Shown piece by piece: positions 13,096 to 51,332 of a stretch of 64,000 nucleotides of DNA. The notes under the pieces are model-generated. The model searched no databases. It was not told where the DNA came from and was given only the letters and a program-made list of their open reading frames with translations. The stretch is from sequence record OQ870555.1; one strand, given 5' to 3'. The position numbers and the translations under genes are program-made. Source of the DNA: Escherichia phage PECP14. How positions within the stretch are numbered: the first letter of the stretch is position 1; every line of letters begins with the position of its first letter.

Positions 13096-13235
13096 TTTTG
13101 TCTCTCATCAATTTATGTATATATTATACATTAAATCGGGAGGATTTGACAAGTACAATTTTTATTTTTCTGCTTCGGACTTTCTTATCAATCCGAAACT
13201 TTCTCTCTCAAATTTATGAGTATATTATACAATAA

Positions 13236-14588
13236 TTATGAGCAGTTGCCAAATGCAATTTTAGCTAATTGTACTGCTTTCTCCGGAGTCATAGTAATAG
13301 TTTTCCATGCATTATTGCGATACACGGCCATACGTCCAGAAGCCTGTCTTAAACCAGTACCTCCTTTCATAATTAAATCTACAACAATCGGATCTAGCTT
13401 TCCGTCAACAATACGTTGAACGCGGCCTGCTAACTGTTCTATGAGAGATTCATTATTAATGAGACTTCCCATTATTAAACAAGACAGCTCGTTAAGAGAA
13501 ATACCTTCTGAGAAGATACTCTGAGCTGCTGCAAGCACACAGGGTCCGCCCTCCGCTACATCTTTCTGGATTCTCAATCGGTCATCCAAAGGAGTTGCAC
13601 CTATAATCTCATAGGTTGTAACACCACGTTGTGCGAGAGCTTCTAATATTGTTTGGATTAGTTCCGTCCTATCACTTACAAAGAGAACCTTATGCCCCAT
13701 AGACACATATAAATGTGCTAGGTTTATAATAGTTTCCCGATATTCAGGATGATTATATACATCATTAGCACGTAGTGCCCACGGTACGTTCTGGTTTCCT
13801 GATAACTCGACAGGTACGGAGTACCTATGGATTGTGGGTGGAACAGTGTTATTAACAGGGGGACTAAAGATCTTATATCCAAAGAAATCTTTGAACATAA
13901 CTTGTAGCCCATCTTTACGTTTTAATGTACCTGATAGACCGATCTTGTAGCGAGCACATGAGATCTCTAGGAAATTAGTGAAAGTTGTAGCTACACAGTG
14001 GTGAACTTCATCAACTATAACAGTACCGAATACCTTAGAAAGATTATTCGCATGTTTGTTCACTGTTTGTATATTACTGACCACGATTGGTGGATCAATG
14101 TTATACTTTCCAGAACCTATAATACCCGGCTCGAATCCAAACCATTTACGAACTTCTGCAGCCCACATTTCACGAATGGATGTGTTAGTGCAGATTACCA
14201 GAGTTTTCTGGCCAAACTTATATGCAAGAGCTAGAGCTAGGATAGTTTTACCAAATCCAGGCTTACCATTAATAATACAGGTATCATCGCACTCTTCATA
14301 TATAGGAAGCTGATCTTCTTCACGTAGCTTGAACTGAGGTTCTGGTATTTCTACCGGAGCTAATGTGCGTTTATCAACTAATTCGTATTTTACTCCCTTA
14401 GCATCTAGTAAATCCAGACGCGTAATGGGAATCCACTTAATCTCTTTAGCAACAACACCACTATTCTTATACATAATAGGGTATTTACTAGTCATTGTCT
14501 CGATGTGATAAGTGGTTTGCTTACTACAATAATCCCAGAGTTCATCATCGGGCTTGAAATAGGCTTTATTAGATATAACAACCTTCAT
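13236..14588 (-). CDS. SF2 DNA helicase (D10-like)
   Basis: 450 aa; Walker A GKPGFGKT, DEVHH box, C-terminal helicase domain. Confidence 0.75.
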   Translation of the reverse strand: MKVVISNKAYFKPDDELWDYCSKQTTYHIETMTSKYPIMYKNSGVVAKEIKWIPITRLDLLDAKGVKYELVDKRTLAPVEIPEPQFKLREEDQLPIYEECDDTCIINGKPGFGKTILALALAYKFGQKTLVICTNTSIREMWAAEVRKWFGFEPGIIGSGKYNIDPPIVVSNIQTVNKHANNLSKVFGTVIVDEVHHCVATTFTNFLEISCARYKIGLSGTLKRKDGLQVMFKDFFGYKIFSPPVNNTVPPTIHRYSVPVELSGNQNVPWALRANDVYNHPEYRETIINLAHLYVSMGHKVLFVSDRTELIQTILEALAQRGVTTYEIIGATPLDDRLRIQKDVAEGGPCVLAAAQSIFSEGISLNELSCLIMGSLINNESLIEQLAGRVQRIVDGKLDPIVVDLIMKGGTGLRQASGRMAVYRNNAWKTITMTPEKAVQLAKIAFGNCS

Positions 14589-15082
14589 AATTTTATTCTA
14601 AGTCTAGGAATTTCAGGCTCCTCTTGATGGACTTGATAAATAACAGGGCTATTATTTACCAGAATATAGCTTATATAAGCTGGAACATAGGATAGCACGA
14701 ATGGATACGGGACTTTAGCCACATAGCATTGATACTTTCCATTATAAATTCTTGCAGAATGCAGAACTTTAGATGTGATAACATCATAGAACGTAGTTTT
14801 CTTCCAGTTAATGAGATTTCCATCAGAATCTATGAACTGGCTACGCTTTGACCCAACTAATTGGGACAACATTGATATTCTACCACGAATAGGATAGAGC
14901 TTATAAGGTAATTCTTTCCGCTTCTCAAATAAGGCTAACCTACGTTGAGAGAATGTGCCAGGCAACTCCCTGTTATCCAGCACATATTTATTATATCTTG
15001 TTGTAATTACGGAATAATCACCTTCCTGCTCAATTGATACAAACGCCCGTAAAGCATATACGGGCAATTTGAAATCAAGCAC
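14585..15082 (-). CDS. hypothetical protein (GTG start)
   Basis: 165 aa ORF starting 5 nt after the polymerase stop. Confidence 0.45.
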   Translation of the reverse strand: MLDFKLPVYALRAFVSIEQEGDYSVITTRYNKYVLDNRELPGTFSQRRLALFEKRKELPYKLYPIRGRISMLSQLVGSKRSQFIDSDGNLINWKKTTFYDVITSKVLHSARIYNGKYQCYVAKVPYPFVLSYVPAYISYILVNNSPVIYQVHQEEPEIPRLRIKL

Positions 15083-17642
15083 CTAAAATCCTTTTCACAT
15101 TATCCAGATCTTTACATACAGCAATAAACTTATCATCCTTGTACTTGCTGTGGTCTGGATGCTCTTTATCCATTGCAGCTAACTTCTTATACTCGAAATC
15201 TGCATCGAGTAATACACCCTTAACATAACGAGTATACTCATCATCATCAATACAAGCGATTGATGGGTGCTGTTTCTTCATCTTACCACAAGAGTAGTCA
15301 CGAGAACCACCTTTCTCAGAATCAGAATCAATACCGATTGGGCAGCCAGGGATACTAATACCACGATCCTTCTGGATGTTACGAATCAGAATCTCGTTAT
15401 ATTGATCAATCAGATCTTCACGTACAATAGCAACCACGGAGTCGTGAACCAACATGACGATCTTCATCTCTTTTCCTAGACCCAGGGACAGGATTTCCTC
15501 ATCCGCATCAATAGCACCTAACAACAGGCTATCAGAAGATGCAGACTGAATGATTGCGTTAAATCCAGAACGGATTTCTTCACCCTGAACACCGCGATCT
15601 TCGGAGTGGATATTGTGCAGACGACGCTTACGACCAAAGTGACTATAGATGAATCCAAAGTTCTTGATCTGATCGTGGCACTTATCAATCCAACGCTTAA
15701 GCTGAGGGAACTGACCGAAGTAAGTTTCGATATAGTCCTTCGCATCTGCAACGGTACATTCAACAAACGGTTCGCCTGTCTTAGCAGCCTGTTCCAGAAG
15801 AGCTTCGTTAACAGAATGAGCTACTTTAGCTGGGCCAGAACCATACAGAATACCGAAGGTAATTGCCTTAGCAGCCTGACGCAGAGCTGGGAACAGCTTC
15901 TTAACATCACGTGGTTCACAGGTCAGTTTAAATACCATGTGTGCGATGTTTGAGTGGAAGTCAGGGTATTTATCAGGCTCATTCTTCATGTTGATAAATA
16001 CTTGTTGCATGTTTCTGTCACCAGACAGTACAGCAGCGTAATAAACTTCCGCAGTTGTTAAGTCCCATGCGATTACACGATATCCAGGGGGAGCTACTAC
16101 ACAACCCTTAATAATAGATTCATCACGTGGTAACTGTTGCAGGTTTAGCTTACCAGAAGAACTCAGACGACCAGAAGTAGTCATGTGTTCGTGGAAACCG
16201 GTACGAATGCAACCATCTGCATCGATGCTCAGAAGAATCTTCTCAACATAAGTAGAGATCAGCTTAGTCAGCTTACGAATCTCTAGCAGAGTTTTCGCAA
16301 TCGGGTGCTGAGTAGCCAATTCATTCAGAGCTTCTGCGTTTGTAGAATCTGCACCTGTATCTGTCAGTTTACCAGTTGGAGTCAGACCAACATAATCAAA
16401 CAGAAGAACACGAAGTTGCTTAACAGAGTTCGGGTTAAATGCTTCGTTCTGATCTTTCTCTAGCTGAACGACTTCTGGATAAGTATACAGCTTTTCACGA
16501 GCCTTGTTCAGGTTGTGAGTTAACTGATACTGAGCTTCTTTCAAGCGATCAACAGAAATTGGTACACCACGATCTTCAACACGTTGCAGGAATACGCAAC
16601 CAGGCATCAGAACATCATAGTATAGACTGCGAAGTTTTTCATTCTTCTCAATTTTCGGTAAGAAGAAGTTATGCAGACGCAGAGTAGCATCGGTATCTTT
16701 TGCAGCATATGGCCACATAATATCAAATGGAATCAGATCATAGCTGAAATCCTCTTTTTTGATCTTATGTGCCTTGCAATAATCATCCTTGAACTTATCC
16801 AGTTCAAAGTCGTAATCGCCCATGTCAGTATACTTCATAGCCAGAGATTTCAGGCCGTGGGTACCACGACGTTCATCGAGAACATAGTGTTGTAACATGG
16901 TATCATGAAGTCTACGCTCTTTATGTGCTTTCTCAAAGGAAAGTCCTAAATGATAGGAATAAAAGTGCATATCGAACTTCAAGTTATGAAAAACGATCTG
17001 ATGATTCTTGCTATCCAGAATTTTCTGGAGATAATGTACAGCTACTTCGGTGATGCTGTCAGAGTCAATATAAACACCCTGATACTCTTGGTGAGACATA
17101 GAAACACCAAGCAGATAACCATCACGAGCGTACAAAGCTGAGGTTTCGGAGTCGAATGCGACAGGTCCGATAACCATGTTATACACCATCTTAATGTATT
17201 CTTCAGCTTCGTCTGGATCAGTAATAGGACGATAATCACCAGCTTTTGCAATCTTCTCACGACCATTAATAATGTCATGAATACTTTCTACAGTTGCATC
17301 GAAAACTGGTTTCATTTCAGGTTTAAAGTGTAGCTGAGCTGGACTAATACTTGCAATCCAGTTGGCATAGCCGCCATGCTCTACACGTTTACCAGTATAA
17401 TCACCGATACCTTTCTTACCTGCGAAATACAGGAAAGGTTCAGCACCAACTAGTACAACAAAATCGTAATCGTTCGGATCGAACGGGTTAACTGGAGTTC
17501 CGATTGTAATATGCTTTTTCAGCAAACGGCCAGATAACTTCTCGTTACACATATGGAATACATCAACTTCCTCACCGTAAAGCTGGAAGTGTTTATCATA
17601 ACGAGTGTTATTTAGAGCTTTATCAACTACTGCAATTTTCAA
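15075..17642 (-). CDS. DNA polymerase, family A (T5-type, with 3'-5' exonuclease domain)
   Basis: 855 aa; exo motif FDSETS, Pol A motifs (...RQAAKAITFGILYG..., ...LVHDS...); TTG start with strong RBS AAGGAG 7 nt upstream. Confidence 0.9.
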   Translation of the reverse strand: MKIAVVDKALNNTRYDKHFQLYGEEVDVFHMCNEKLSGRLLKKHITIGTPVNPFDPNDYDFVVLVGAEPFLYFAGKKGIGDYTGKRVEHGGYANWIASISPAQLHFKPEMKPVFDATVESIHDIINGREKIAKAGDYRPITDPDEAEEYIKMVYNMVIGPVAFDSETSALYARDGYLLGVSMSHQEYQGVYIDSDSITEVAVHYLQKILDSKNHQIVFHNLKFDMHFYSYHLGLSFEKAHKERRLHDTMLQHYVLDERRGTHGLKSLAMKYTDMGDYDFELDKFKDDYCKAHKIKKEDFSYDLIPFDIMWPYAAKDTDATLRLHNFFLPKIEKNEKLRSLYYDVLMPGCVFLQRVEDRGVPISVDRLKEAQYQLTHNLNKAREKLYTYPEVVQLEKDQNEAFNPNSVKQLRVLLFDYVGLTPTGKLTDTGADSTNAEALNELATQHPIAKTLLEIRKLTKLISTYVEKILLSIDADGCIRTGFHEHMTTSGRLSSSGKLNLQQLPRDESIIKGCVVAPPGYRVIAWDLTTAEVYYAAVLSGDRNMQQVFINMKNEPDKYPDFHSNIAHMVFKLTCEPRDVKKLFPALRQAAKAITFGILYGSGPAKVAHSVNEALLEQAAKTGEPFVECTVADAKDYIETYFGQFPQLKRWIDKCHDQIKNFGFIYSHFGRKRRLHNIHSEDRGVQGEEIRSGFNAIIQSASSDSLLLGAIDADEEILSLGLGKEMKIVMLVHDSVVAIVREDLIDQYNEILIRNIQKDRGISIPGCPIGIDSDSEKGGSRDYSCGKMKKQHPSIACIDDDEYTRYVKGVLLDADFEYKKLAAMDKEHPDHSKYKDDKFIAVCKDLDNVKRILGA

Positions 17643-17704
17643 ATTTAGTCTCCTTTTGGTAAGTAAGTATAACTTCAGTGTTTCTTCTCTAACTTACCAA
17701 TATA

Positions 17705-18595
17705 TTATACCAAATCTTTGAGCGATTCGGCAACTAAAATTTCAATACGTTGAGCCAACATATCGATCTCTTCTTTATTTAAATCACCTGGGTCTTTGCC
17801 TTCTGGAAGAAGGAAGTTACCAACTACAGGTGTTAAACGTGTTTTTGTACGAATTAGCTTCGCTAGTGCTTGAGCAGCTTTATTACCAGAGGCATCATTA
17901 TCTAATAGGATAACTACTACTCTTACTCCAGCAATAATGTAAGGACTGAACTTATCAGCAATGTTATCAGATGTAAACTGATGTGTACCAAAGCAGCAAG
18001 AAGCATAATCCACACCGTTATCTTCTAGATTTAACATATCAAAGATACCTTCAACTAGAACAAGAACTGGTGTATTATATCGTACAGGGAAAATCGGTGG
18101 TGAAACTTGTTTTGGTTTTACTAAGTATTTAGGAGGGGCAGAACCGTTTATAGAACGTCCCAGAAATAGGATATTGCGTCCAACAGCATCTGTTATTGGG
18201 AATACAATTCTGCCTTCCCAGTCTGCTTGATGTTGGAAAGCAAAATATTTCTTCAAGGTCTTAGAACTGATACCTCGGAAATCACCTTCGAAAAGGTAAG
18301 CAGATTCAGGAATTGCAAGATTCGTAGATCCATTCCTAATCTCTGAAATCTTTTTACGTACTTGTGACAATCTTGGTGACTGTCTGTACTGAGTCTCATT
18401 AAAATAATGGTAAATGCTCGGTATTCCTCTACCGAAGCCACAACTCAAGCAGTGCATAATACCTGATTCAGGATCAATACGCAAACTTGGGTGTTTATCA
18501 TCATGATCTGGATTGAGACAACAGATGAGGATGTCCCCACCTGTGTCTTTGTATTCAATGCCTTTCAGATCAAGTAGTTCTGTTATTCTACTCAT
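17705..18595 (-). CDS. DNA primase (DnaG-like, zinc finger + TOPRIM)
   Basis: 296 aa; Cys cluster CLNPDH...CLSCGFG, TOPRIM-like VLVEGIFD and LLDNDASG. Confidence 0.8.
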   Translation of the reverse strand: MSRITELLDLKGIEYKDTGGDILICCLNPDHDDKHPSLRIDPESGIMHCLSCGFGRGIPSIYHYFNETQYRQSPRLSQVRKKISEIRNGSTNLAIPESAYLFEGDFRGISSKTLKKYFAFQHQADWEGRIVFPITDAVGRNILFLGRSINGSAPPKYLVKPKQVSPPIFPVRYNTPVLVLVEGIFDMLNLEDNGVDYASCCFGTHQFTSDNIADKFSPYIIAGVRVVVILLDNDASGNKAAQALAKLIRTKTRLTPVVGNFLLPEGKDPGDLNKEEIDMLAQRIEILVAESLKDLV

Positions 18596-20064
18596 ATATC
18601 GCTGGCCTGTTCACCTGTTGAATTTTCAGCTTTGTCTTTCTTAGCACGTTTAGGTTGAGCTGGTTTATCCTTTTCAATAGGAATAACGAACTCAGCTTCC
18701 ATTTGCGCAATATCTTCCATTGCTAGGTTGGTAGTATTATCCATTCGCAGAGTTTCCCAGTTCATCTTAGGCATAAACTTCACACTATCAGAGGAACGAG
18801 TCTTAACGAAGTCAAACATAATAGCACCTTGACCGTTATCAGCTTTTGCAGCATTAAGATTAGCAGCCATATCTGCGGAATCAAGAATCCCTTTAGACAT
18901 ACGCGTTCTACCATCTTGGTCAATCTGGTAAGGGGCAACACCAGCCACGTTATGTTTCTGGCAGATAGATTTGAAAGATGAACTAACAACCATCTGTTCT
19001 TTCCAGTCATACATATCAATGGTCTTTGAATCTGGAAGTCTTGTTTGGTTAATATAGTCTAGAAGAGCTACAGTAACCTTATCACCATACTTAGCAACTA
19101 GTTTATTTAATTCTACGTCAACCGTCGTAATAGACAGTTCAGGATCGTAAACGATGATCATAGGAGTGTGAAGCTCATAGCCTTCAAGGAGTTTACTTTC
19201 CATATCATAGAAGTCACTCATTTTAGCCATAGTGTATTGCTTAACGAAGTTATCGAAAAGCTCTTCACCACCATTAAACATCCTAGCCCTAGTTCTGGCT
19301 AATCTCAACAGAGCAGCACCTTCAAGAGTGTTATTACGCATTGCTAATGCAGATACTCCAGCTAACATAGCCAGATTACGTCTAAACACTTCGTGCTCTT
19401 TCATCTCAATTGAGAAGTATGGAGCAATGTCTCCATTCAAATATTGCTGAACCTGTATGTTTGAACAGATAATGGATTTACCAGTACCACGCCAACCACC
19501 AAGCAGTAACGTTTCTGTGCGAGCTAAACCAATTTGAGCGTCGAACTCATTACAAATACCAAGAGCGATCAAGTTCAGTTTGGTATCTTCTTCTCTCTGG
19601 AAAATACGCATTGTGTCTGCGTTGAATACCTTTCCAGTATTCGTTACTTTCTCTTCTAATTTTAAGTGAAGGGAGGCAACTCGGTTGAGAATTTCTCCCT
19701 GATCCAGCATTGTTAAATCTTGAAGCACGTCTGTTTCTAGAAGTTTCAGGAATAGATCCTGTGTATATTCGGCTTCTAGGACTTCAAGCGCCTGTTCCAT
19801 GCTCACTTCTGGAATTTGAGTGTTAGCTAAGACGACAAGAGCTTGAGAAAGGCGGGCGTTCCTATTGGCCTCAAGCATCAGTGCGTCAATGGACGGCATT
19901 GCGTTATATTTCTTATAATAATTCTGGACGGCTTGGTAAATTGAGGAGAAAGCGTCATTAAAATGATCTTTATGCAGTTTTGAGAATGTTTCCAATGCTA
20001 TTTGCTTCTGTTCAGAAGCGAGAAGCATCTTCAACACTACAGCTTGCACGTTAAACAAGGTCAT
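18592..20064 (-). CDS. replicative DNA helicase (DnaB-like)
   Basis: Walker A GGWRGTGKS; track ORF starts at 20115 inside a terminator-like hairpin, so ATG at 20064 is preferred (start uncertain). Confidence 0.75.
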   Translation of the reverse strand: MTLFNVQAVVLKMLLASEQKQIALETFSKLHKDHFNDAFSSIYQAVQNYYKKYNAMPSIDALMLEANRNARLSQALVVLANTQIPEVSMEQALEVLEAEYTQDLFLKLLETDVLQDLTMLDQGEILNRVASLHLKLEEKVTNTGKVFNADTMRIFQREEDTKLNLIALGICNEFDAQIGLARTETLLLGGWRGTGKSIICSNIQVQQYLNGDIAPYFSIEMKEHEVFRRNLAMLAGVSALAMRNNTLEGAALLRLARTRARMFNGGEELFDNFVKQYTMAKMSDFYDMESKLLEGYELHTPMIIVYDPELSITTVDVELNKLVAKYGDKVTVALLDYINQTRLPDSKTIDMYDWKEQMVVSSSFKSICQKHNVAGVAPYQIDQDGRTRMSKGILDSADMAANLNAAKADNGQGAIMFDFVKTRSSDSVKFMPKMNWETLRMDNTTNLAMEDIAQMEAEFVIPIEKDKPAQPKRAKKDKAENSTGEQASDI

Positions 20065-20146
20065 TCTCCTTTGCACGCTTTCGTGCCTTCTAAATGCAAA
20101 AAGGGGAAGGAGCATAGCCCCCTCCCCTTAGGTTTAATTTACCAGA

Positions 20147-20914
20147 TTATTCAGCAGCCGCAGCTTTTGCATCCAGTTTAGCACGCTTAGCGGCACCATC
20201 ATAGTCCTTAGCAACCAGACCACGACGAGACAGCATAGATTTAACACCGCGCTCAGACTTACCAGTTTTCTCAGCGATCTCAGCAACAGTCATGTTAGCC
20301 AGATCCAGACCTTCTAACAGATCTTCACGAGTTTTAGCACTTGAAGTTTCCTGTACCGGCATAGCAGCGATACGACCTTCACGAAGCAGACTCAGAGCTT
20401 TACCACGGATCTGCTTAATATTGCGACCGAAGTGAGCAGCGATAGCTTCAATAGTAGCACCAGCAACAACCTGATTAACGAAATCAGTTTCTTCGTCAGG
20501 AGTGAAGGAACGAACAGCAGCAGCTTTTTCGGTTGGCTTAACAGAAGCAGTCATTTCCAGACTCAGGATCTTACCCTGTACCTGCTTAGCACCGAACTGA
20601 CCACCAGCTACAGCAGCAGCGATTTCAGCGTAAGTATACTGACCAGCATGAGCGTTCAGGAAATCAACCAGTTCAGCTTCCTGCTCAGGAGTCCACGGGG
20701 ATTTCTGTACTTCGTTTGCTTTCTGTACTTCGAAACCTTCTTTACGCAGCTTAGAGCCAACAGAGCGAGCGGTAACGTCTTTGCCAGTCTCGGTAGCCAA
20801 TTCAGCAGCGATAGCAGCTACTTGTTCTTGAGAGATTACAGCAACACCCAGAGCAGTGGCTTTTGCTTTCAGAGACTCGGTTACACCTTCTACGTTCCAG
20901 TTCAGTTTAGACAT
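20147..20914 (-). CDS. DNA-binding protein with four tandem helix-turn-helix-like repeats
   Basis: 255 aa; about 60-aa units each containing ..(T/Y)..AEIA..G.......G...S..G... ; strong RBS GGAGAAAAATAATAATG. Confidence 0.55.
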   Translation of the reverse strand: MSKLNWNVEGVTESLKAKATALGVAVISQEQVAAIAAELATETGKDVTARSVGSKLRKEGFEVQKANEVQKSPWTPEQEAELVDFLNAHAGQYTYAEIAAAVAGGQFGAKQVQGKILSLEMTASVKPTEKAAAVRSFTPDEETDFVNQVVAGATIEAIAAHFGRNIKQIRGKALSLLREGRIAAMPVQETSSAKTREDLLEGLDLANMTVAEIAEKTGKSERGVKSMLSRRGLVAKDYDGAAKRAKLDAKAAAAE

Positions 20915-21686
20915 TATTATTTTTCTCCAATAGTTCTTTAATCGACAGGATTTCTATCCCATTCGTTTCGGCTTTCTTATAAGATGAGGAAGAACGTTTT
21001 GATTCATCCTCACAGATTAGGTATTTGACGTCTTTGGTAACGGACTTCTTAACCGTATATCCTAGACTTTCTAAATAGTTTGTTGCATCCGTTCGATTTG
21101 CAAAATCTTGCAAAGATCCGGTAATACAGACCGTGATTCCATTTGGCTGGGTAACTAAATCATCTGTAATGATGATATCCGCTTTAGCACCTCGAATACC
21201 TGTTGAGAATTTCCACGGTAATTCAATAACATCCTTGCCTTGTGGGGAATTTAGCCAGGTTTTGTAATTTTCTCCAGCCTTGCCGTCAGCCTTCACATCG
21301 TGGAAGCTAGTGCAATTTTGGGACAGTTTCTTTGCTGCAACCTCTCCAATAAGAGGAATTCCTAAAGAACCGAGAACTGAACCAAAGTCAGTGTCTCCGC
21401 GAACCTTAGTATTTAACTCGCTAATCAATTTAGCGGCAACCTTGCTACCCACAGCTCCGACCAAATCTTCTTCGGTCAGGTAAAACAGTTCTGAGATCTT
21501 AGTCAGCTCCAGCTTCTCAATAGTTTTCGGGCCAAAGCCCTTTAACTTCATTTTTGTGCAGAAGTTCTCGATTAACTTACTTGATTGCGCTGGACAGTTG
21601 GACTTATTCCTACAGAATAATTGCCCGTTGACAAGATCTAGCTTAGAACCACAAGAGGGACATTGTGTTGGAATTTCGATTTTCAT
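20907..21686 (-). CDS. NAD-dependent DNA ligase, C-terminal subunit (Zn finger, HhH, BRCT-like)
   Basis: 259 aa from ATG at 21686; C4 zinc motif CPSCGSKL...C..C; complements the adenylation subunit upstream. Confidence 0.8.
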   Translation of the reverse strand: MKIEIPTQCPSCGSKLDLVNGQLFCRNKSNCPAQSSKLIENFCTKMKLKGFGPKTIEKLELTKISELFYLTEEDLVGAVGSKVAAKLISELNTKVRGDTDFGSVLGSLGIPLIGEVAAKKLSQNCTSFHDVKADGKAGENYKTWLNSPQGKDVIELPWKFSTGIRGAKADIIITDDLVTQPNGITVCITGSLQDFANRTDATNYLESLGYTVKKSVTKDVKYLICEDESKRSSSSYKKAETNGIEILSIKELLEKNNNV

Positions 21687-21716
21687 CAAATTTCTTCCTT
21701 ATCAATTTATATAAAT

Positions 21717-21745
21717 ATTATAACAAGTATTTAAGCATTTAGCAA
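21717..21745 (-). promoter_or_regulatory. early promoter module (minus strand) upstream of ligase C-terminal subunit
   Basis: Minus strand reads TTGCTA-17 nt-TATAAT followed by ATAAATTGATAAGGAAG RBS leader. Confidence 0.6.
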
Positions 21746-21809
21746 CTACAATTTTAACTAACTTTGCTTACCCTCGCCATAACTTTCTATCCCTCAACTG
21801 AATGATAAT

Positions 21810-21838
21810 AGTATATACCTAAGCGGCGAAAATGTCAA
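21810..21838 (-). promoter_or_regulatory. near-consensus sigma70 promoter (TTGACA-17-TATACT), minus strand, in the ligase inter-subunit spacer
   Basis: Minus strand reads TATTGACATTTTCGCCGCTTAGGTATATACT. Confidence 0.55.
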
Positions 21839-21888
21839 TAACCACTTTATAATTCCGACATGGTAAACGGGTAGCAAAGGGTTACGAA

Positions 21889-22860
21889 TTAGTCGTATAC
21901 TCGCTCTACTATACAAGGGATTACACCACCAGCACGAATCACTCGAATCTGGCAACCGATCTCTAAATCGAGAGCGTTAATATAATCAACGTTATTAAGA
22001 GTTGCTTTAACGATTGTGGCATCATCAATAATCACCGGCTCGAAATAACCAACTGGAGTTACTTTACCAGAAGCCCCTACTTGCCATTCAACTTTAACAA
22101 GTGTGGTAATTTCGCCTTCTTCATCCTCTTTAATAGCAAATGCGCCACGAGGAAATTTATTAGTCCAACCTTCACGGAAGAATTTGTTGTTATCATTAAT
22201 ACGAACAACTTTACCATCTGTCGGAATCCATTTAAAGAAGGAACGAACATTAACAACTGTCAAGAAGTTCTCATTCTCTAGCCAAAGCATATCTTTTAAA
22301 TAGGCTTCTGTAATACCGACTGTTTCCGCTGAACACTGGATACCATATGCAACGAAGATTAAACCACCTTCACCAATACGTTGGATGAAATCATCGCTGT
22401 CTTTCAGGTTAATAGCACCTGAAGCGTAGTTACGTTTGTTCTCTACTTCTTTAGTAATGAGAACTTCACCAGTGATTTGAGTTGGAACTTTTTGGGAAAT
22501 AGTTTTAGGGATGTTCAGCATTTTAACATTATGCGTTACATCATTCCCTAGAATACCGTTACCACGAGTTAACGCTTGAACAAATTCACCATTAATATAT
22601 AATAGAGAAATCGCACAACCATCTAACTTATCAGTTTCAACCTGACCTAATGGATTGAATGGAGCTTTATCACCGCGACCGTAATAGACTTTCTGCAAAG
22701 AATACATACGATACAAATGAGGAATATCACCTTTCGGTCCGATTTCTTCCTCCAGTGGGAATCTTTTAATCAGACGATCATATTCTTCATCGGAAATAAG
22801 ACTCATTCCCTGGTAGTACGCTTCTTGACAACGTTTGATAAAGTCTTTTACATTATTCAT
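21889..22860 (-). CDS. NAD-dependent DNA ligase, N-terminal adenylation subunit
   Basis: 323 aa; adenylation lysine motif KLDG (VETDKLDGCAISLLY); OB-fold region. Confidence 0.8.
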   Translation of the reverse strand: MNNVKDFIKRCQEAYYQGMSLISDEEYDRLIKRFPLEEEIGPKGDIPHLYRMYSLQKVYYGRGDKAPFNPLGQVETDKLDGCAISLLYINGEFVQALTRGNGILGNDVTHNVKMLNIPKTISQKVPTQITGEVLITKEVENKRNYASGAINLKDSDDFIQRIGEGGLIFVAYGIQCSAETVGITEAYLKDMLWLENENFLTVVNVRSFFKWIPTDGKVVRINDNNKFFREGWTNKFPRGAFAIKEDEEGEITTLVKVEWQVGASGKVTPVGYFEPVIIDDATIVKATLNNVDYINALDLEIGCQIRVIRAGGVIPCIVERVYD

Positions 22861-23053
22861 CGTCTGCGATTTCCATTTTGAGTTCTTTGTTATACTGAGC
22901 AGCCATACCAGCTAAATCAGCAGCTTCTTTCAACCACGCATCTTTGTACGCTTTCTGGTTTGGAGTGCCGATACTATCCTGGTAATTGATTCTTGCTATG
23001 GAGAGCAAATTAAGTTTTGCTTGAATCTTTGGAAGTGTTATTGTCATTGCCAT
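22853..23053 (-). CDS. hypothetical small protein
   Basis: Start moved to ATG at 23053 (MAMTITLPK) behind a promoter module and GAGAGGAT RBS. Confidence 0.45.
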   Translation of the reverse strand: MAMTITLPKIQAKLNLLSIARINYQDSIGTPNQKAYKDAWLKEAADLAGMAAQYNKELKMEIADDE

Positions 23054-23138
23054 AATTGATCCTCTCATCAATTTATATAAATATTATATATGAAAACTGA
23101 GTCGAAAGCAAGTACATTTATAAAGAAAAAGCCAAGAA

Positions 23139-23447
23139 CTAGGCATTCTTGGCTTTGAGTTCTTCAGCTCGTTTCTGTACTTCATGCAAGACCTCGGATT
23201 CACTGAGGATTTGCGTAAAAGCGTAGAATAGCTGTGATGTAGTTTCTAGGGTATAAGGAAAAGAGAAGCCGGATTTCGTTGGAAACCACTCTCCAGTAAT
23301 ATCTTGGAGCCAGTAACGAATTCCCATGTATAGATTCCCACGAAATTCAGATACGGTTAGTCTTACTTGTTCCCCCTCCTTCTCCCAAAGCATGATGGAC
23401 TGGTCGTCAACGTGTCCTTCATAGTTTTGATTTACCTGATCGCTCAT
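23139..23447 (-). CDS. hypothetical protein
   Basis: 102 aa ORF with ATG start. Confidence 0.5.
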   Translation of the reverse strand: MSDQVNQNYEGHVDDQSIMLWEKEGEQVRLTVSEFRGNLYMGIRYWLQDITGEWFPTKSGFSFPYTLETTSQLFYAFTQILSESEVLHEVQKRAEELKAKNA

Positions 23448-45672: not shown

Positions 45673-45701
45673 TTGCTAATTAGTTTAGTTTTCTGTATAA
45701 T
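45673..45701 (+). promoter_or_regulatory. early promoter module
   Basis: TTGCTA-17 nt-TATAAT, then ..TTTAAATTGATGAGACGAGG..ATG. Confidence 0.65.
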
Positions 45702-45731
45702 ATATTTTTAAATTGATGAGACGAGGCTATT

Positions 45732-46049
45732 ATGATTTTTCATATTCTGATTGATGATGTGCGTAACCTTCATGGAATGGACATTATCATTCGAACCCCC
45801 GAAGCCGCTGTTGAGTTTCTGAATAAAACCGATACCACAGGTCATTTCGTTTATATGGATAACGATCTGGCTGTAGATGGTATGGAAGGTTATCAAATTC
45901 TTCGTTTACTCCTAGAATTTGGTCAGAGACCCAAGAAAGTGGTACTAGTAACCTCGAACCCAGTAGCTAAAGAGACCATGCGTAATGATCTCTTAGACGA
46001 AGGGTATCAAGAAAGCCCTAATCGTATTGAGTACGATTGGCCGGAGTAA
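45732..46049 (+). CDS. hypothetical protein, possible receiver (CheY-like) fold
   Basis: 105 aa; alternating hydrophobic/acidic pattern (IFHILIDDV...YMDNDLAVDGMEGYQILRLL...VVLVTSNP) resembles a stand-alone receiver domain. Inference only. Confidence 0.5.
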   Translation: MIFHILIDDVRNLHGMDIIIRTPEAAVEFLNKTDTTGHFVYMDNDLAVDGMEGYQILRLLLEFGQRPKKVVLVTSNPVAKETMRNDLLDEGYQESPNRIEYDWPE

Positions 46050-46054
46050 ATAAA

Positions 46055-46504
46055 ATGAAGGCAGCTTTGCTTTTAATAGCTGCCCTAACCTATAGCTTCA
46101 ATAGTCATGCGACCTACGACTCAAAGCAGATTGATTGCATTGCAAAAAATATCTACTTCGAAGCACGAGGTGAGGGCACTAAAGGAATGATCGCAGTTGC
46201 ACAGGTTACTAAAAACCGTGTTAACTCTGGTACTTTTCCTGATTCTTACTGTAAAGTAGTATATCAGTCTAACCAGTTCTCTTGGGTGGCCAAGAGACCA
46301 AAAGTTGATAAAACCGATGAGGCTTGGCAAGTTGCTAAGAATTTAGCTAGAGTGATATACTACGTTGATTTACCACAAGATCCAACACATGGAGCGTTAT
46401 ACTTCCATAGTGGTAAAGATAAACCGTACTGGACAAAGAAGTTTAAGAAAACAACGAAGATTCAAGGCCATACGTTTTACAAGCCTGTGGTTAAGAAAAC
46501 TTAA
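46055..46504 (+). CDS. secreted cell-wall hydrolase, SleB/Hydrolase_2-like
   Basis: ATG at 46055; signal peptide MKAALLLIAALTYSFNSHA; domain ...CIAKNIYFEARGEGTKGMIAVAQVTKNR...SYCKVVYQSNQFSW.... Confidence 0.65.
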   Translation: MKAALLLIAALTYSFNSHATYDSKQIDCIAKNIYFEARGEGTKGMIAVAQVTKNRVNSGTFPDSYCKVVYQSNQFSWVAKRPKVDKTDEAWQVAKNLARVIYYVDLPQDPTHGALYFHSGKDKPYWTKKFKKTTKIQGHTFYKPVVKKT

Positions 46505-46513
46505 AAAATTCGA

Positions 46514-46542
46514 TTGCTTAAAGCCTTAAATTTCTGTATAAT
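46514..46542 (+). promoter_or_regulatory. early promoter module
   Basis: TTGCTT-17 nt-TATAAT, then ..ATAAATTAATGAGAGGAAGCG..ATG. Confidence 0.65.
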
Positions 46543-46573
46543 ACTTTCATAAATTAATGAGAGGAAGCGAAAT

Positions 46574-46744
46574 ATGAAATCAGTTGTAATTATTGGTGTT
46601 AATACTCGTGGTATCCGTACTACGAAAACAGTTAAAACTACTAACGTTGCTGAAATTACTACAAACCCTAAGAAGTTTGATTTCGCCAAAGTCTCGGCAG
46701 TTATGACAGAACAATCTTTTAACCAAGCACTGGGAATTAAATAA
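46574..46744 (+). CDS. hypothetical small protein (56 aa)
   Basis: Not in the supplied track (under 60 aa); ATG with RBS GAGAGGAAG; coupled by TAATG to the next gene. Confidence 0.4.
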   Translation: MKSVVIIGVNTRGIRTTKTVKTTNVAEITTNPKKFDFAKVSAVMTEQSFNQALGIK

Positions 46745-47193
46745 TGGAAGAGAATATTCTAGATGTTTTGCGTAGGGCTTTGCAGGAATCTAAGGTTGAT
46801 GGTTCTGATAAAGAAGTAGCTAAAAGCTACCAGACCATAATCGGAGATCTTCAGCGTGTTGATAAAGACTTCATTACTTCTGAACAGTTTGTATCTTATC
46901 TAAAAGCTCAACTGAAAAGCATTAATCAGACGAAAGCTAAACTTCACGGTCAAGACCTTGATAATTATAGCTTGCAGTCTGCTCAGTATGAATATATACT
47001 GAACAAATGGTTACAACAGTATCTGCCGCCTCAGCTTTCTGATTCTGAGATTCGCAAATACTTTGCAGAATTAGTTAAGTTGAACCCTGGGATTACGAAG
47101 GGTATGCTGATGAAAGCGATTAAGGAAGAATTCCCTGGTCGTTATGATGGTGGTATTGCTGCTCAAGTTGCTGGCGAATTCAATAAAAATTGA
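46744..47193 (+). CDS. GatB/YqeY-domain protein
   Basis: 149 aa; ...NKWLQQYLPPQLSDSEIRKYFAELVKLNPGITKGMLMKAIKEEFPGRYDGGIAAQVAGE... matches the YqeY pattern (yLPqqLs.eE...GRaDG). Confidence 0.6.
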   Translation: MEENILDVLRRALQESKVDGSDKEVAKSYQTIIGDLQRVDKDFITSEQFVSYLKAQLKSINQTKAKLHGQDLDNYSLQSAQYEYILNKWLQQYLPPQLSDSEIRKYFAELVKLNPGITKGMLMKAIKEEFPGRYDGGIAAQVAGEFNKN

Positions 47194-47194
47194 T

Positions 47195-47223
47195 TTGCTA
47201 AACGCTTCAAAATTCTGTATAAT
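47195..47223 (+). promoter_or_regulatory. early promoter module directing transcription into the ORF-free segment
   Basis: TTGCTA-17 nt-TATAAT; the -35 overlaps the YqeY-like stop codon. Confidence 0.65.
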
Positions 47224-48057
47224 AGATTCATAAATTAGAGAACAGCGAGCCGATTACGCTGAGTGAGTTTAGTGATTCCTAATAGGATAGCTATTCCACT
47301 GAATAGAGTCGGTGAGTTGGAGACTAGTAAGTACTCTGAGAGAGGCTACGAGCTAACGCTTATTGCTATTGATAGGGAACTGAAAATCTGCGGAAAACTC
47401 GGGAGCTGTCCCGAAATCTCGTAAACTCTTCTCTAGTTTATGTTAGTGGGGTGTCGAACTGACTTATGTGATAACACTGCCAGATGCTCACAGGCTGACA
47501 TTGAGCTTTACTGCTCCTTCTGGAAAGAATCGGATAACTCGGGCTTATACCGGATAAGCATTCGCTGCTGGAGTACATACTATGACGGTTCAGGAGGTAC
47601 GCCACCTGATCAGTATTAGGTTAGAATCGAAACAGCTAAACCACGAGGAAACCTGACGGCCTCAACCAAACTCGGAACTCGGGATCACTGCCTAGTGTGT
47701 ACCCCGTTTAACCTGAGACTAGGCATCCAGCTTCGCATCGAAAATCGGAGGTGCGATTCTAACAGACCGCGTAACTATGAGAGTGGGAAACGCTGACATG
47801 AGAGATGTCACTAATGGTGCCCAATAGTACAGGTAATTCGCGATAATTCCTGTTGAGCGGCAGCAGTAGGCTGGGAGTCATGACCTAAGCCTAACCGAGT
47901 TCTTCACATACGGAGAACATAACCACAAAGTCACCCTGACTTAAACTGGAAGATATTGTCTGACGGAAGGGCTGCAGAGCTTAATCTGAGGGGGCTGACC
48001 CTACCTACCGTCGGGTATCTTTAAGAGCTTTTATAAGAGTTCTTAAAAATACCTAAA
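47224..48057 (+). ncRNA. candidate large structured non-coding RNA (ORF-free, promoter-driven, ends at tRNA-Arg)
   Basis: No ORF of 60 aa or more in any frame between 47194 and 48158; visibly more G+C-rich than flanking DNA; recurring AACTCGG(G) motif and several short hairpins. Identity unknown. Confidence 0.4.
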
Positions 48058-48132
48058 CGGGGTGTAGTCTAAGGGATAGGCAGGAGTCTTCTAAATTCCT
48101 TTATGCAGGTTCGAATCCTGTCACCTCGGCCA
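48058..48132 (+). tRNA. tRNA-Arg (anticodon UCU)
   Basis: Hand-folded: acceptor CGGGGTG/CACCTCG, anticodon arm GGAGT-CTTCTAA-ATTCC, T-arm GCAGG-TTCGAAT-CCTGT, encoded CCA. Confidence 0.75.
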
Positions 48133-48158
48133 ATTTTATTAACTGCTAGGAAAATAAA

Positions 48159-48359
48159 GTGAAAACACGATATATAGTAAAAGTAGTAGGTGAACATTCA
48201 CAAGTAAATACCACCGATGTTACAGCGCTAGCATTTGAAGTAGTCTCCGGTATAGTCATATTTCATAACGGAGATATCAAAGCTCCTGAATTTGCTGTGG
48301 ATGCTAGCCTGTTTATTTCTGCAACTAAAGTAACTGTAGTAGCTAACTCTTCTAAATAA
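48159..48359 (+). CDS. hypothetical small beta-rich protein upstream of the SPFH gene (GTG start)
   Basis: 66 aa ORF ending 11 nt before the SPFH gene. Confidence 0.45.
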   Translation: MKTRYIVKVVGEHSQVNTTDVTALAFEVVSGIVIFHNGDIKAPEFAVDASLFISATKVTVVANSSK

Positions 48360-48370
48360 TAAGGAAATAT

Positions 48371-49315
48371 ATGTTTACTAAAAACACTAAAGAACTGACT
48401 TCCGATCAAAAAGTAATTCGTACTATTAAACGTTGGGGTGTTGGTGCTGTAGTTGGTCTTGGCGCTCTTATTCTGGCTCTCAATTCCTATACAGTTGTTC
48501 AGGACGGTACGGTTAAAACTCAGACTTTCCTGGGTAAAGTTAGTCCTAATCCTGTATTGCCGGGGTTCCATATTGTCAACCCATTCGCCTCTTTTGATAC
48601 TTTTAGTACGAAAGATATTTCTATGAAACTGGATAAACTTCAGGTTCCTAGCCAGGATAAGTTTAAGTCTACAGTTGACATTACCGTTATGTTGCAGTTT
48701 GATGGTGCTAAAGCTCCTATGAACCGTGTTAACGCAGGTACTCAGGATCAAGCTCTGAACAAGTACGTTGAAGAGAAGATGCTGTCTACGATTCGTGAGT
48801 TTGGTAAGTCTGTACCAAAAGCACAAGATCTGTTCGACGCTAAGATTCAGGCTCAACTGCAAACCGCTATTCAGCAAGAAGTAGAAGAGTATGCGCGTCC
48901 TTATGGTTACACCGTTAAGCAAGTATTCCTTCAGGATATTACTCTGCCACCGGTAATCATGGAACAGGTACAGAACACCAAAGTTCGTGAAGAACAAGTT
49001 AACGCTGCAAAAGCTGAACTGGCTCGTGTTGAACAAGAAGCACAGCAGAAAGTTAAGCAAGCTGAGGCAGATCGTTCCGCTCGTGAAAACATGGCAGTAG
49101 CTAACGAACGTGACGCAGATGCTAAACTGTACGCAGCTAAGAAAGAAGCTGAAGCTAACGCCGCTCTGCAACGTACCATTACTCCTGAAATGATTCGTTG
49201 GAAGCAGCTGGAAGTTGAAATGCTTCGTGCTGAAAAATACCAAGGGGGTGTACCACAGACTGTTGTCGGTACTGGCTACGATGGTCAAATGATCATGGAT
49301 ATGCGTAACAAGTAA
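48371..49315 (+). CDS. SPFH/band-7 (stomatin/prohibitin-like) membrane protein
   Basis: 314 aa; N-terminal TM helix (WGVGAVVGLGALILAL), SPFH body, C-terminal Ala/Glu/Gln-rich coiled coil; RBS AAGGAAAT. Confidence 0.75.
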   Translation: MFTKNTKELTSDQKVIRTIKRWGVGAVVGLGALILALNSYTVVQDGTVKTQTFLGKVSPNPVLPGFHIVNPFASFDTFSTKDISMKLDKLQVPSQDKFKSTVDITVMLQFDGAKAPMNRVNAGTQDQALNKYVEEKMLSTIREFGKSVPKAQDLFDAKIQAQLQTAIQQEVEEYARPYGYTVKQVFLQDITLPPVIMEQVQNTKVREEQVNAAKAELARVEQEAQQKVKQAEADRSARENMAVANERDADAKLYAAKKEAEANAALQRTITPEMIRWKQLEVEMLRAEKYQGGVPQTVVGTGYDGQMIMDMRNK

Positions 49316-49338
49316 TAGTTACACGTAATCTTCGAACC

Positions 49339-49375
49339 AAGCCCGCGTTTCCTTCGAGAGCGCGGGCTTTTCTGT
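49339..49375 (+). terminator. rho-independent terminator after the SPFH gene
   Basis: AAGCCCGCG-(13-nt loop)-CGCGGGCTT followed by TTCTGTATTT. Confidence 0.7.
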
Positions 49376-49385
49376 ATTTAAGGCA

Positions 49386-49430
49386 AAAGAAAAAGCCCCT
49401 TACCTTTCGGCAGGGGCTTTTGTTTTTTGG
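49386..49430. terminator. bidirectional terminator between convergent plus- and minus-strand genes
   Basis: AAAAAGCCCCT-(loop)-AGGGGCTTTTGTTTTTT, A-run upstream and T-run downstream. Confidence 0.7.
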
Positions 49431-49635
49431 TTTAGAACCATACTCTCTTGTTACAACAACCACTCATACGGGAGACCAATCTTGACTGAAAATCTACTCT
49501 AGGGGGCAGGATAAGAGTAGGCTTAAAGGCAAACGGATTGAACACCGGTATTTGTGTAAACATTGCTGGAGAGCAACAACGTGCTACAGGTATTGGGCAG
49601 CACGAAACAGATTTTCTGCAACACATAATTCCTCC

Positions 49636-50052: not shown

Positions 50053-50074
50053 AATGGGCTCCTCCCCTTAAAGA

Positions 50075-51302: not shown

Positions 51303-51332
51303 ATATTTATAAATTTGAGAGAGGAATCAAAT

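What the first reader, a model, noticed from the sequence alone, without database searches (positions are those of the whole stretch)
20907..22860. NAD-dependent DNA ligase split into two genes by a 0.2-kb spacer carrying tandem promoters
The adenylation half (KLDG motif, 21889-22860) and the Zn-finger/HhH/BRCT half (20907-21686) are separate ORFs. The 200-bp spacer has no ORF, no intron-like fold that I could see, and no HNH remnant, but carries two minus-strand promoters including a near-consensus TTGACA-17-TATACT. The C-terminal subunit can therefore be transcribed independently.
Basis: partly seen in the sequence, partly recalled or inferred. Interest (0 to 1): 0.5.

Follow-up and report, generated by a model that had tools for sequence, protein, structure and literature searches.

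The report
Known split T5-type DNA ligase
This is the two-gene NAD-dependent DNA ligase of T5-like phages, with the named T5 early promoters P-K28b and P-K28a in the gap between the genes; it is real and conserved, but already annotated and structurally solved, so it is ordinary.

Summary
On the minus strand, ligA (21889-22860: domain Ia, adenylation, OB) and ligB (20907-21686: Zn finger, HhH, BRCT) are separate genes. A 202-nt spacer between them has stop codons in all three frames and two sigma-70 promoters.

The window is a T5-like phage (Demerecviridae), and all of this is already on record:
- A 2006 paper credits the discovery of the T5 split ligase to Wang et al. 2005.
- The T5 st0 record names the two spacer promoters "P-K 28b" and "P-K 28a".
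- PDB entries 9hu3 and 9i5i hold both subunits of a homologue; the B chain is identical to Providencia phage PR1 LigB.

My survey adds detail:
- All 69 loci whose LigB is at least 35% identical are split, with gaps of 56-1965 nt. The fused relatives recovered were about 28% identical.
- In 31 of 32 representative split loci scanned, a promoter match sits just upstream of ligB.
- Extra genes (GIY-YIG, NADAR, DprA-like, glutaredoxin) insert upstream of the promoters.
- The 160-nt promoter module is the most conserved stretch in 8.7 kb of T5-like genomes.

Verdict: real, functional, already known, low interest.

The parts
23068..23121 (-). Early-promoter-like element upstream of the ORF72-ligA pair. 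It includes an exact copy of the 21-nt 'repeat b' element TATAATATTTATATAAATTGA.
   Evidence: This is repeat family D2. There are 8 copies of the 21-mer in the window against 0.03 expected. T5 AY587007 annotates the equivalent site as putative early promoter T5P35 plus repeat b copy 4.
22853..23071 (-). 72-aa ORF of unknown function. Its stop overlaps the ligA start by 8 nt (ATGAATAA).
   Evidence: ORF list and sequence; phrog_8267 at 6e-44. No such ORF is annotated in T5 or S114, where the promoter abuts ligA.
21889..22860 (-). [quoted passage not shown]
   Evidence: Pfam. PDB 9hu3_A at 2e-106. K78 aligns with E. coli K115, and residue 320 aligns with E. coli residue 390. Annotated as subunit A in many records.
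21687..21888 (-). 202-nt non-coding spacer between ligA and ligB.
   Evidence: Stops in all frames; no Rfam hit; no terminator-like site on the minus strand.
21784..21858 (-). Promoter P-K28b (T5P36): -35 TTGACA at 21838-21833, -10 TATACT at 21815-21810.
   Evidence: Promoter scan. AY692264 annotates 'promoter P-K 28b' at -172 to -98 relative to the ligB ATG. The hexamers are conserved in T5, Yersinia, Klebsiella, Pectobacterium, Proteus, Providencia and Vibrio phages.
21754..21780 (-). 8-codon mini-ORF (MARVSKVS) preceded by GAGGGA, in the leader of P-K28b. Probably not a conserved peptide.
   Evidence: Sequence and translation. It is present in T5 and the Yersinia phage but differs or is absent in Klebsiella, Pectobacterium and Vibrio phages.
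21691..21765 (-). Promoter P-K28a (T5P37): -35 TTGCTA at 21745-21740, TG-extended -10 TATAAT at 21722-21717, repeat b at 21702-21722.
   Evidence: AY692264 annotates 'promoter P-K 28a'; AY587007 annotates T5P37 plus repeat b copy 5. TATAATATT contains the ATATT motif reported for T5 early promoters (PMC7472727).
21694..21700 (-). Shine-Dalgarno sequence AAGGAAG of ligB, 7 nt before the ATG.
   Evidence: Sequence. Purine-rich equivalents occur in all aligned relatives.
20907..21686 (-). ligB: NAD-dependent DNA ligase subunit B (C4 Zn finger, HhH, BRCT).
   Evidence: Pfam. PDB 9hu3_B at 1.3e-79 and E. coli LigA residues 402-529 at 1.3e-12. Invariant C9, C12, C25 and C31.
20147..20914 (-). D5-like putative transcription factor (homologue of T5p116). 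Its start overlaps the ligB stop by 8 nt, so it belongs to the same transcription unit.
   Evidence: ORF list; Sigma70_r4_2 at 7.8e-07; annotations. It is tightly linked to ligB in all relatives inspected.
20101..20129 (-). Terminator-like hairpin (13-bp stem, 8 G-C pairs, T run) just after the D5-like gene. It is the likely end of the ligB-D5 unit.
   Evidence: Terminator scan.

Best explanation
This is the naturally split, two-subunit NAD+-dependent DNA ligase of T5-like phages (family Demerecviridae).

Subunit A carries the NMN-binding domain Ia, the adenylyltransferase domain with the catalytic lysine (K78 in KLDG) and the OB fold. Subunit B carries the Zn finger, the helix-hairpin-helix DNA clamp and the BRCT domain. 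The break lies in the OB-to-Zn-finger linker, at about E. coli LigA residues 393-400. The two proteins are translated separately and assemble non-covalently into a LigA-like enzyme that seals nicks during phage replication.

Transcription runs in two overlapping units. An upstream early promoter drives ORF72-ligA. No terminator is predicted after ligA, so that transcript probably continues into ligB. The two host-sigma-70 early promoters in the spacer, P-K28b and P-K28a, add transcripts that cover only ligB and the overlapping D5-like regulator gene, up to the hairpin at 20129-20101.

Shown here: the gene structure, the homology, the split point, the family-wide conservation of the split and of a promoter in front of ligB, and the existence of a solved entry holding both subunits of a homologue. 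Inferred: promoter activity and read-through in this particular phage, a higher output of B and D5 than of A, and assembly of this phage's own two subunits.
For: Identity and annotation
- The region is 98-99% identical to many Epseptimavirus genomes that annotate ligase subunits A and B.
- T5 ligA is AAU05253 and ligB is AAU05254 (PMC3632103; AY692264).
[quoted passage not shown] 2005.

Domains and split point
- LigA K78 aligns with E. coli K115, and LigA 214-320 aligns with E. coli 284-390.
- LigB residues 3-122 align with E. coli 402-529.

Physical association
- PDB 9hu3 and 9i5i contain both a chain A (2e-106 to LigA) and a chain B named 'DNA ligase subunit B' (1.3e-79 to LigB).
- The B chain is 100% identical to Providencia phage vB_PreS_PR1 and PSTCR5.
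- A truncated LigN containing only domain Ia, the adenylation domain and the OB fold still self-adenylates (PMC1684257). That fits A being the catalytic half.

Promoters
- Matches of 11 of 12 and 10 of 12.
- Named 'promoter P-K 28b' and 'promoter P-K 28a' in AY692264, T5P36 and T5P37 in AY587007, and 'P-K 28b-like' and 'P-K 28a-like' in S114.
- The hexamers are invariant across seven genera while the flanks diverge.
- 31 of 32 representative split loci have a promoter match between the end of ligA and the ligB ATG: 52-71 nt upstream, about 145-155 nt upstream, or both.

Conservation
- All 69 loci with at least 35% LigB identity are split, with gaps of 56-1965 nt.
- The 160-nt module is as conserved as the flanking coding DNA, or more so, in 7 of 8 pairwise comparisons. 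The exception, phage My1, was extracted about 21 nt out of register.
- Among 26 distinct T5-like sequences, 3% of module columns vary, against 57% of ligA third codon positions.
- It is the most conserved 160-nt window in 8.7 kb.

Operon structure
- There are 8-nt overlaps between ORF72 and ligA and between ligB and D5.
- No terminator is predicted in the spacer, and a strong hairpin follows D5.
Against: - Nothing was measured for this phage. Promoter firing, read-through from ligA and subunit stoichiometry are all inferred.
- I could not find or read a paper describing 9hu3. That the deposited chains form a functional heterodimer is therefore inferred from their presence in the same entries.
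- I could not read the original paper on the T5 promoters. The experimental status of P-K28a and P-K28b rests on the GenBank feature names and on my memory of the Bujard laboratory's T5 promoter work.
- The count of promoter-like hexamers in the region is no higher than in shuffled sequence.
- The motif IV lysine of E. coli LigA (K290) is an arginine here and in the Providencia enzyme. I did not evaluate the effect of this change.
Confidence: 0.9

Rival explanations
1. The split is an artefact or a decayed gene: a sequencing frameshift or a pseudogenised ligase.
For: Only the general point that split ORFs are often assembly errors.
Against: - The gap is 202 nt with 5-7 stops in every frame.
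- 456 records match the stretch and 429 cover at least 80% of it; the annotated ones list two ligase genes. All 69 diverse loci are split.
- Both halves are conserved as proteins, with the catalytic and Zn-binding residues intact.
- ligB has its own Shine-Dalgarno sequence and ATG.
- A homologue is deposited in the PDB as two separate chains.
Confidence: 0.01
2. A single ligase polypeptide is restored after transcription or translation, by a self-splicing intron, a split intein, or ribosomal bypass of the spacer.
For: Phage genes are known to be interrupted by introns, inteins and the T4 gene 60 bypass (general knowledge). The spacer RNA of this window folds somewhat better than shuffles, with z = -2.7.
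Against: - No Rfam family, group I or II introns included, matches at an E-value up to 10.
- No consensus structure or covariation appears across 7 genera.
- The gap varies from 56 to 1965 nt and can hold unrelated genes: GIY-YIG, NADAR, DprA-like, glutaredoxin.
- Pfam finds only ligase-type domains in A and B and no intein domain. A ends where the E. coli OB fold ends, and B begins at the Zn finger.
- The PDB homologue is deposited as a separate 'subunit B'.
- The window-only fold pairs the leader with the -10 box of P-K28a and is not conserved.
Confidence: 0.02
3. The spacer promoters exist mainly to drive the downstream D5-like regulator (and possibly a ligA-independent role of LigB). Independent expression of the ligase C-terminal half is then a by-product of an operon boundary that happens to fall inside the ligase. 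This refines the best explanation rather than excluding it.
For: - The ligB stop overlaps the D5 start by 8 nt, and the pair is tightly linked in every relative inspected.
- The terminator-like hairpin follows D5, not ligB.
- Insertions always fall upstream of the promoter module, so promoter-ligB-D5 behaves as one unit.
- The module is far more conserved than other promoter-bearing intergenic regions nearby.
Against: - No expression data are available.
- LigB is itself well conserved and is deposited together with LigA. Ligase function is therefore sufficient reason for its expression.
- Nothing here shows that D5 needs more transcription than ligA.
Confidence: 0.3

Closest known systems
Bacteriophage T5 LigA/LigB (T5p114 AAU05253 and T5p115 AAU05254; dnlj1 and dnlj2 in AY587007)
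   Same: Same gene order: promoter, ligA, 202-nt spacer, ligB, D5-like gene. Protein identity is 95-96% for LigA and LigB. The 160-nt module upstream of ligB is 99% identical at the nucleotide level.
   Different: The window carries an extra 72-aa ORF between the upstream promoter and ligA. No such ORF is annotated in T5. The window is closer to Epseptimavirus genomes such as Sepoy (98.9%) than to T5.
PDB 9hu3 / 9i5i: NAD-dependent DNA ligase chain A plus 'DNA ligase subunit B' (B chain identical to Providencia phage vB_PreS_PR1 / PSTCR5)
   Same: The same two-subunit architecture and the same split point. Full-length matches: A at 2e-106 and B at 1.3e-79. The Providencia phage also has a 192-nt gap with tandem promoters.
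   Different: About 55% protein identity to the window. No paper describing the entries was found in the held library.
Bacterial single-chain LigA (E. coli LigA, PDB 2owo)
   Same: The same six-domain set in the same order. The catalytic KxDG lysine, the OB fold, the C4 Zn finger, HhH and BRCT are all alignable.
   Different: E. coli LigA is one polypeptide of 671 aa. Here there are two (323 + 259 aa), broken at about E. coli residues 393-400. The nucleotidyltransferase region is shorter, and an arginine replaces K290.
T5 early promoters P-K28b and P-K28a (T5P36 and T5P37)
   Same: Same position and essentially the same sequence: hexamers, TG extension, ATATT after the -10 box, and the repeat b element.
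   Different: None of substance. Activity in this phage was not tested.
Fused phage LigA genes (Acinetobacter phage Ab1-TPeters, 613 aa; IMG/VR loci L070-L072 and L074)
   Same: Homologous to both halves, at about 28% identity.
   Different: A single ORF. These are the closest unsplit relatives recovered, which places the split at or before the base of the T5-like clade.

Membership tests
NAD+-dependent DNA ligase (LigA) family | Nucleotidyltransferase domain with the KxDG adenylation motif | tested here: met
   Pfam DNA_ligase_aden at 3e-23, above its cut-off. KLDG is at residues 78-81, and K78 aligns with E. coli K115.
NAD+-dependent DNA ligase (LigA) family | N-terminal domain Ia (the NMN-binding domain that specifies NAD+) | tested here: inconclusive
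   The segment ISDEEYDRLIKRF aligns with E. coli IPDAEYDRLMREL, but only as a weak, non-significant stretch. It is conserved in the 9hu3_A homologue. NAD+ use itself cannot be tested here.
NAD+-dependent DNA ligase (LigA) family | OB-fold domain following the nucleotidyltransferase domain | tested here: met
   Pfam DNA_ligase_OB at 9e-22. It aligns with E. coli residues 284-390.
NAD+-dependent DNA ligase (LigA) family | C4 zinc finger, HhH domain and BRCT domain | tested here: met
   C9, C12, C25 and C31 are invariant in 6 LigB sequences. LigB residues 3-122 align with E. coli 402-529 at 1.3e-12. BRCT scores 1e-08, above its cut-off. HHH_2 scores only 2.5e-4, below its cut-off.
NAD+-dependent DNA ligase (LigA) family | All domains on one polypeptide (the canonical bacterial form) | tested here: not met
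   There are two ORFs in different frames, 202 nt apart, with stops in all frames. This is the defining difference of the T5-type enzyme.
T5-type split ligase (LigA subunit A + subunit B of Demerecviridae) | A break at the OB/Zn-finger linker, with ligA upstream of ligB on the same strand and a D5-like gene directly after ligB | tested here: met
   The same layout is seen in T5, S114, smaug, My1, and Proteus, Klebsiella, Yersinia and Vibrio phages. All 69 loci surveyed are split.
T5-type split ligase (LigA subunit A + subunit B of Demerecviridae) | The two subunits associate to form the active enzyme | not testable with these tools
   Indirect only: both chains of the Providencia phage homologue are in PDB 9hu3 and 9i5i. 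No paper was found.
T5 early promoters P-K28b / P-K28a | Sequence and position equivalent to the named T5 features, with sigma-70 -35 and -10 elements | tested here: met
   AY692264 features lie at -172 to -98 and -79 to -5 relative to the ligB ATG. The window module is 99% identical to T5. Hexamer matches are 11 of 12 and 10 of 12.
T5 early promoters P-K28b / P-K28a | Transcription initiation by host RNA polymerase at these sites | not testable with these tools
   The original promoter paper could not be read. Support here is conservation and the ATATT early-promoter signature (PMC7472727).
Intron- or intein-interrupted gene | A self-splicing RNA fold or intein domains at the junction | tested here: not met
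   No Rfam match. No conserved structure. The gap content is variable and unrelated between phages. Pfam finds no intein domain in either subunit.

The most novel reading that the evidence does not exclude
A block of about 230 nt, from roughly -170 to +62 relative to the ligB ATG, may do more than host two promoters. Among 26 distinct T5-like sequences it has only 7 variable columns, each with a minor-allele count of 1 or 2. It also contains the most conserved 160-nt window in 8.7 kb of replication genes. By contrast, ligA third codon positions vary at 57%, and other promoter-bearing intergenic regions nearby vary at 25% or more. The block could be an operator or leader through which the D5-like regulator or the phage's RNA-polymerase modifiers time ligB-D5 expression. 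It could also be a conserved linker at which ligA-side and ligB-side modules recombine. No conserved RNA structure was found, and all deeply conserved positions can be read as promoter elements (UP-like A tracts, -35, TG-extended -10, ATATT, Shine-Dalgarno), so plain promoter constraint remains the simpler reading.
Probability: 0.15. Interest if true: 0.35.

Novelty: already known. Interest (0 to 1): 0.1.

Why it matters
For the scan, this removes a false lead: the split ligase and its internal promoters are textbook features of T5-like phages, annotated since 2004-2005 and now backed by a deposited structure.

The biology still has some interest. It is a natural example of a multi-domain replication enzyme cut at a domain linker and kept that way across a whole phage family. 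The cut coincides with an operon boundary, and that boundary tolerates insertion of mobile and accessory genes.

My survey adds three small points beyond the annotations I saw, which a specialist could use:
- the family-wide range of gap sizes;
- a promoter match in front of ligB in nearly every split locus scanned;
- the unusual conservation of the promoter module.

None of these changes the verdict.

Tried and rejected
- **Rfam scan** of 20500-23300 at an E-value up to 10 returned only three chance-level hits and no intron or sRNA family.
- **RNA structure of the P-K28b leader.** In this window it folds with z = -2.7. RNAalifold on 7 genera gave no consensus pair. I rejected it as a conserved structured RNA.
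- **Leader peptide.** The 8-codon mini-ORF (21780-21754) is not conserved outside close relatives, so I rejected it as a conserved peptide.
- **Small ORFs directly after ligA** in smaug, Proteus and Vibrio phages could have been one lost gene whose remnant fills the spacer here. They do not align convincingly (25-26% identity with many gaps) and share no family, so I rejected this.
- **The Vibrio-phage DNA match to the spacer** lies about 20 kb from their ligase genes. It reflects the shared early-promoter consensus rather than synteny. The Vibrio ligB gene nevertheless has its own copy of the tandem module.
- **Literature.** Searches for 9HU3/9I5I, for 'split DNA ligase' phrases, for PK28a/PK28b and for T5 transcription-start mapping found nothing usable. 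Gentz & Bujard 1985 (PMC214212) is not held, and the supplement of PMC7472727 does not contain the promoter alignment as text.
- **Not run.** I did not run structure prediction or the large protein searches. The sequence matches to solved structures and to annotated genomes already settle identity.
Full report
**What is there**

On the minus strand the window has a 323-aa ORF at 21889-22860 and a 259-aa ORF at 20907-21686 (ATG start; a TTG one codon upstream is also open).

- The first ORF matches the Pfam NAD-dependent ligase adenylation and OB-fold domains.
- The second matches BRCT and, weakly, HhH.
- The ORFs are 202 nt apart and in different frames. Every frame of the spacer carries 5-7 stop codons.
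- The spacer holds TTGACA-17-TATACT (21838-21810) and TTGCTA-17-TATAAT with a TG extension (21745-21717).

One caution: the number of promoter-like hexamer pairs in this 4-kb region is no higher than in shuffled sequence (7 against 7.4). The hexamers alone prove nothing. Their credibility comes from conservation and prior annotation, described below.

**Where it comes from**

The 2.4-kb region matches 456 phage records. 429 of them cover at least 80% of it, at up to 99.4% identity. [quoted passage not shown]

- In T5 itself the genes are ligA (T5p114, AAU05253) and ligB (T5p115, AAU05254) (PMC3632103).
[quoted passage not shown] 2005 (PMC1684257).
- The same paper shows that a LigN truncation containing only domain Ia, the adenylation domain and the OB fold still forms the enzyme-adenylate. 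That fits subunit A being the catalytic half.

**The split point**

LigA K78 (in KLDG) aligns with the adenylated K115 of E. coli LigA, and LigA residues 214-320 align with E. coli 284-390. LigB residues 3-122 align with E. coli 402-529. The break therefore falls in the linker between the OB fold and the Zn finger, at about E. coli residues 393-400. The four Zn-finger cysteines (C9, C12, C25, C31) are invariant in LigB from six genera.

**Physical evidence for a two-subunit enzyme**

PDB entries 9hu3 and 9i5i each contain a chain matching LigA over its full length (2e-106) and a chain named 'DNA ligase subunit B' matching LigB (1.3e-79). The B chain is 100% identical to the LigB of Providencia phages vB_PreS_PR1 and PSTCR5, which belong to the same family. 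I found no paper for these entries in the held library. The conclusion that the chains form a complex rests on their being deposited together.

**The promoters are known**

- The T5 st0 record AY692264 annotates 'promoter P-K 28b' and 'promoter P-K 28a' between ligA and ligB. Neighbouring sites in that record are only 'putative promoter'.
- AY587007 calls the two sites early promoters T5P36 and T5P37, and marks a 'repeat b' copy in the second.
- Salmonella phage S114 labels them 'P-K 28b-like' and 'P-K 28a-like'.
- The window's 160 nt upstream of ligB are 99% identical to T5.
- From memory, not verified here because the paper is not held: these names come from the Bujard laboratory's collection of cloned strong T5 promoters (Gentz & Bujard 1985).
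- P-K28a reads TATAATATT, which contains the ATATT motif reported for all known T5 early promoters (PMC7472727).
- The 21-nt repeat b element occurs 8 times in the window against 0.03 expected. It marks a family of early promoters.

**How general the arrangement is**

I fetched 64 IMG/VR loci with a LigB profile and analysed them together with the GenBank loci.

- All 69 loci whose LigB is at least 35% identical to the window's are split. The gaps are 56, 57, 71, 83-107, 189-202, 344-358, 460, 677, 794-801, 961-1374 and 1965 nt.
- Four loci at about 28% identity, and Acinetobacter phage Ab1-TPeters, have one fused ORF.
- I scanned 32 representative split loci. In 31 of them a promoter match (near-consensus in most) lies between the end of ligA and the ligB ATG, 52-71 nt upstream, about 145-155 nt upstream, or both. 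The exception is L063, with a 57-nt gap.
- The T5, Yersinia, Klebsiella, Pectobacterium, Proteus, Providencia and Vibrio phages share the tandem module. Its hexamers are invariant while the surrounding DNA diverges.
- Where the gap is long, the extra genes lie between ligA and the module.

The promoter-ligB-D5 segment thus behaves as one conserved unit. The ligA/ligB junction behaves as an operon boundary that tolerates insertions.

**Conservation of the module**

- In 7 of 8 pairwise comparisons with other genera, the 160 nt upstream of ligB are at least as similar as the coding DNA on either side. For example: 97% against 81% and 89% in Yersinia phage phiR2-01, 78% against 72% and 72% in a Klebsiella phage, and 73% against 67% and 64% in Vibrio phage Ceto. 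The exception is phage My1, whose module I extracted about 21 nt out of register.
- Among 26 distinct T5-like sequences, 3% of module columns vary. The figures for ligA are 7.6% at first and second codon positions and 57% at third positions.
- In a 25-genome alignment of 8.7 kb, the module is the most conserved 160-nt window. Other promoter-bearing intergenic regions vary far more.
- The quiet block runs from about -170 to +62 relative to the ligB ATG, with only singleton or doubleton variants.
- The positions that stay invariant across the whole family can all be read as promoter parts: A tracts upstream of the -35 box, the -35 box, the TG-extended -10 box, ATATT, and the Shine-Dalgarno sequence.
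- No conserved RNA structure was found, and no Rfam family matches.

**How it most likely works**

An upstream early promoter (23121-23068) drives the 72-aa ORF and ligA, which overlap by 8 nt. No terminator is predicted after ligA, so this transcript probably continues. P-K28b and P-K28a add transcripts that begin inside the spacer. These cover ligB and the D5-like regulator gene, whose start overlaps the ligB stop by 8 nt, and they end at the strong hairpin at 20129-20101.

LigA and LigB are translated separately, each from its own Shine-Dalgarno sequence, and assemble into a LigA-like enzyme. The expected consequence is more B and D5 than A. That is inference, not measurement.

**Rivals**

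- *Sequencing artefact or pseudogene.* This is excluded by the number and diversity of genomes with the same split, by the stops in all frames, and by the intact catalytic and metal-binding residues.
- *Restoration of one polypeptide by splicing, an intein or bypass.* This is very unlikely. No intron model matches, the gap varies thirty-fold in length and holds unrelated genes, Pfam finds no intein domain, and the PDB homologue is deposited as separate chains.
- *The module mainly serves the D5-like gene, or LigB has a role apart from LigA.* This is compatible with everything seen and cannot be separated from the main explanation without expression data.

**Verdict**

The survey of gap sizes, the near-universal promoter in front of ligB and the unusual conservation of the module are small additions. 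Interest is low.

Noticed in passing
window 22853-23071 (-): A 72-aa ORF (phrog_8267, unknown function) sits between the upstream early promoter and ligA, and overlaps the ligA start by 8 nt. No such ORF is annotated in T5 or Salmonella phage S114, where the promoter abuts ligA. Phage smaug has a different 90-aa ORF at that spot.
   Followed up: partly
window 13108-23088 (-) and 45696-62232 (+): The 21-nt 'repeat b' early-promoter element (TATAATATTTATATAAATTGA, up to 3 mismatches) occurs 8 times against 0.03 expected. All copies below 24 kb are on the minus strand and all copies above 45 kb are on the plus strand. This suggests two diverging blocks of early transcription in the window.
   Followed up: partly
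window 20101-20129 (-), with the helicase ORF start at 20115: The strong terminator-like hairpin after the D5-like gene overlaps the first ATG of the 507-aa DnaB-like helicase ORF (18592-20115). Either the helicase starts at a later Met (for example M18, MTLFNVQ...), or the hairpin also affects its translation.
   Followed up: no
They are always inserted upstream of the promoter module. In Proteus and Pectobacterium phages the DprA-like gene sits before ligA instead.
   Followed up: partly
window 20147-20914 (-): The D5-like protein gives a match to sigma-70 region 4 (PF08281, 7.8e-07) near its C-terminus, plus several weaker helix-turn-helix hits. Some phage records annotate this protein as a late gene transcription factor.
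   Followed up: no
window 21889-22860 (-), LigA residue R219: The motif IV lysine of E. coli LigA (K290 in DGVVIK) is an arginine in this LigA (DGKVVR) and in the Providencia phage enzyme of PDB 9hu3 (DGLVRR).
   Followed up: no
whole window; best database hit MG065642.1: The closest record (99.4% over 2.4 kb) is named 'Campylobacter phage A148' with host Campylobacter jejuni. Every other close relative is a Salmonella or Escherichia T5-like phage, so the host label of that unannotated record looks doubtful.
   Followed up: no
L033 and L036 versus the other T5-like loci: LigA and LigB identities to the window are uncoupled in some genomes (L033: A 83%, B 95%; L036: A 92%, B 96%). This hints at recombination between the ligA side and the ligB side across the ultra-conserved promoter block.
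   Followed up: no
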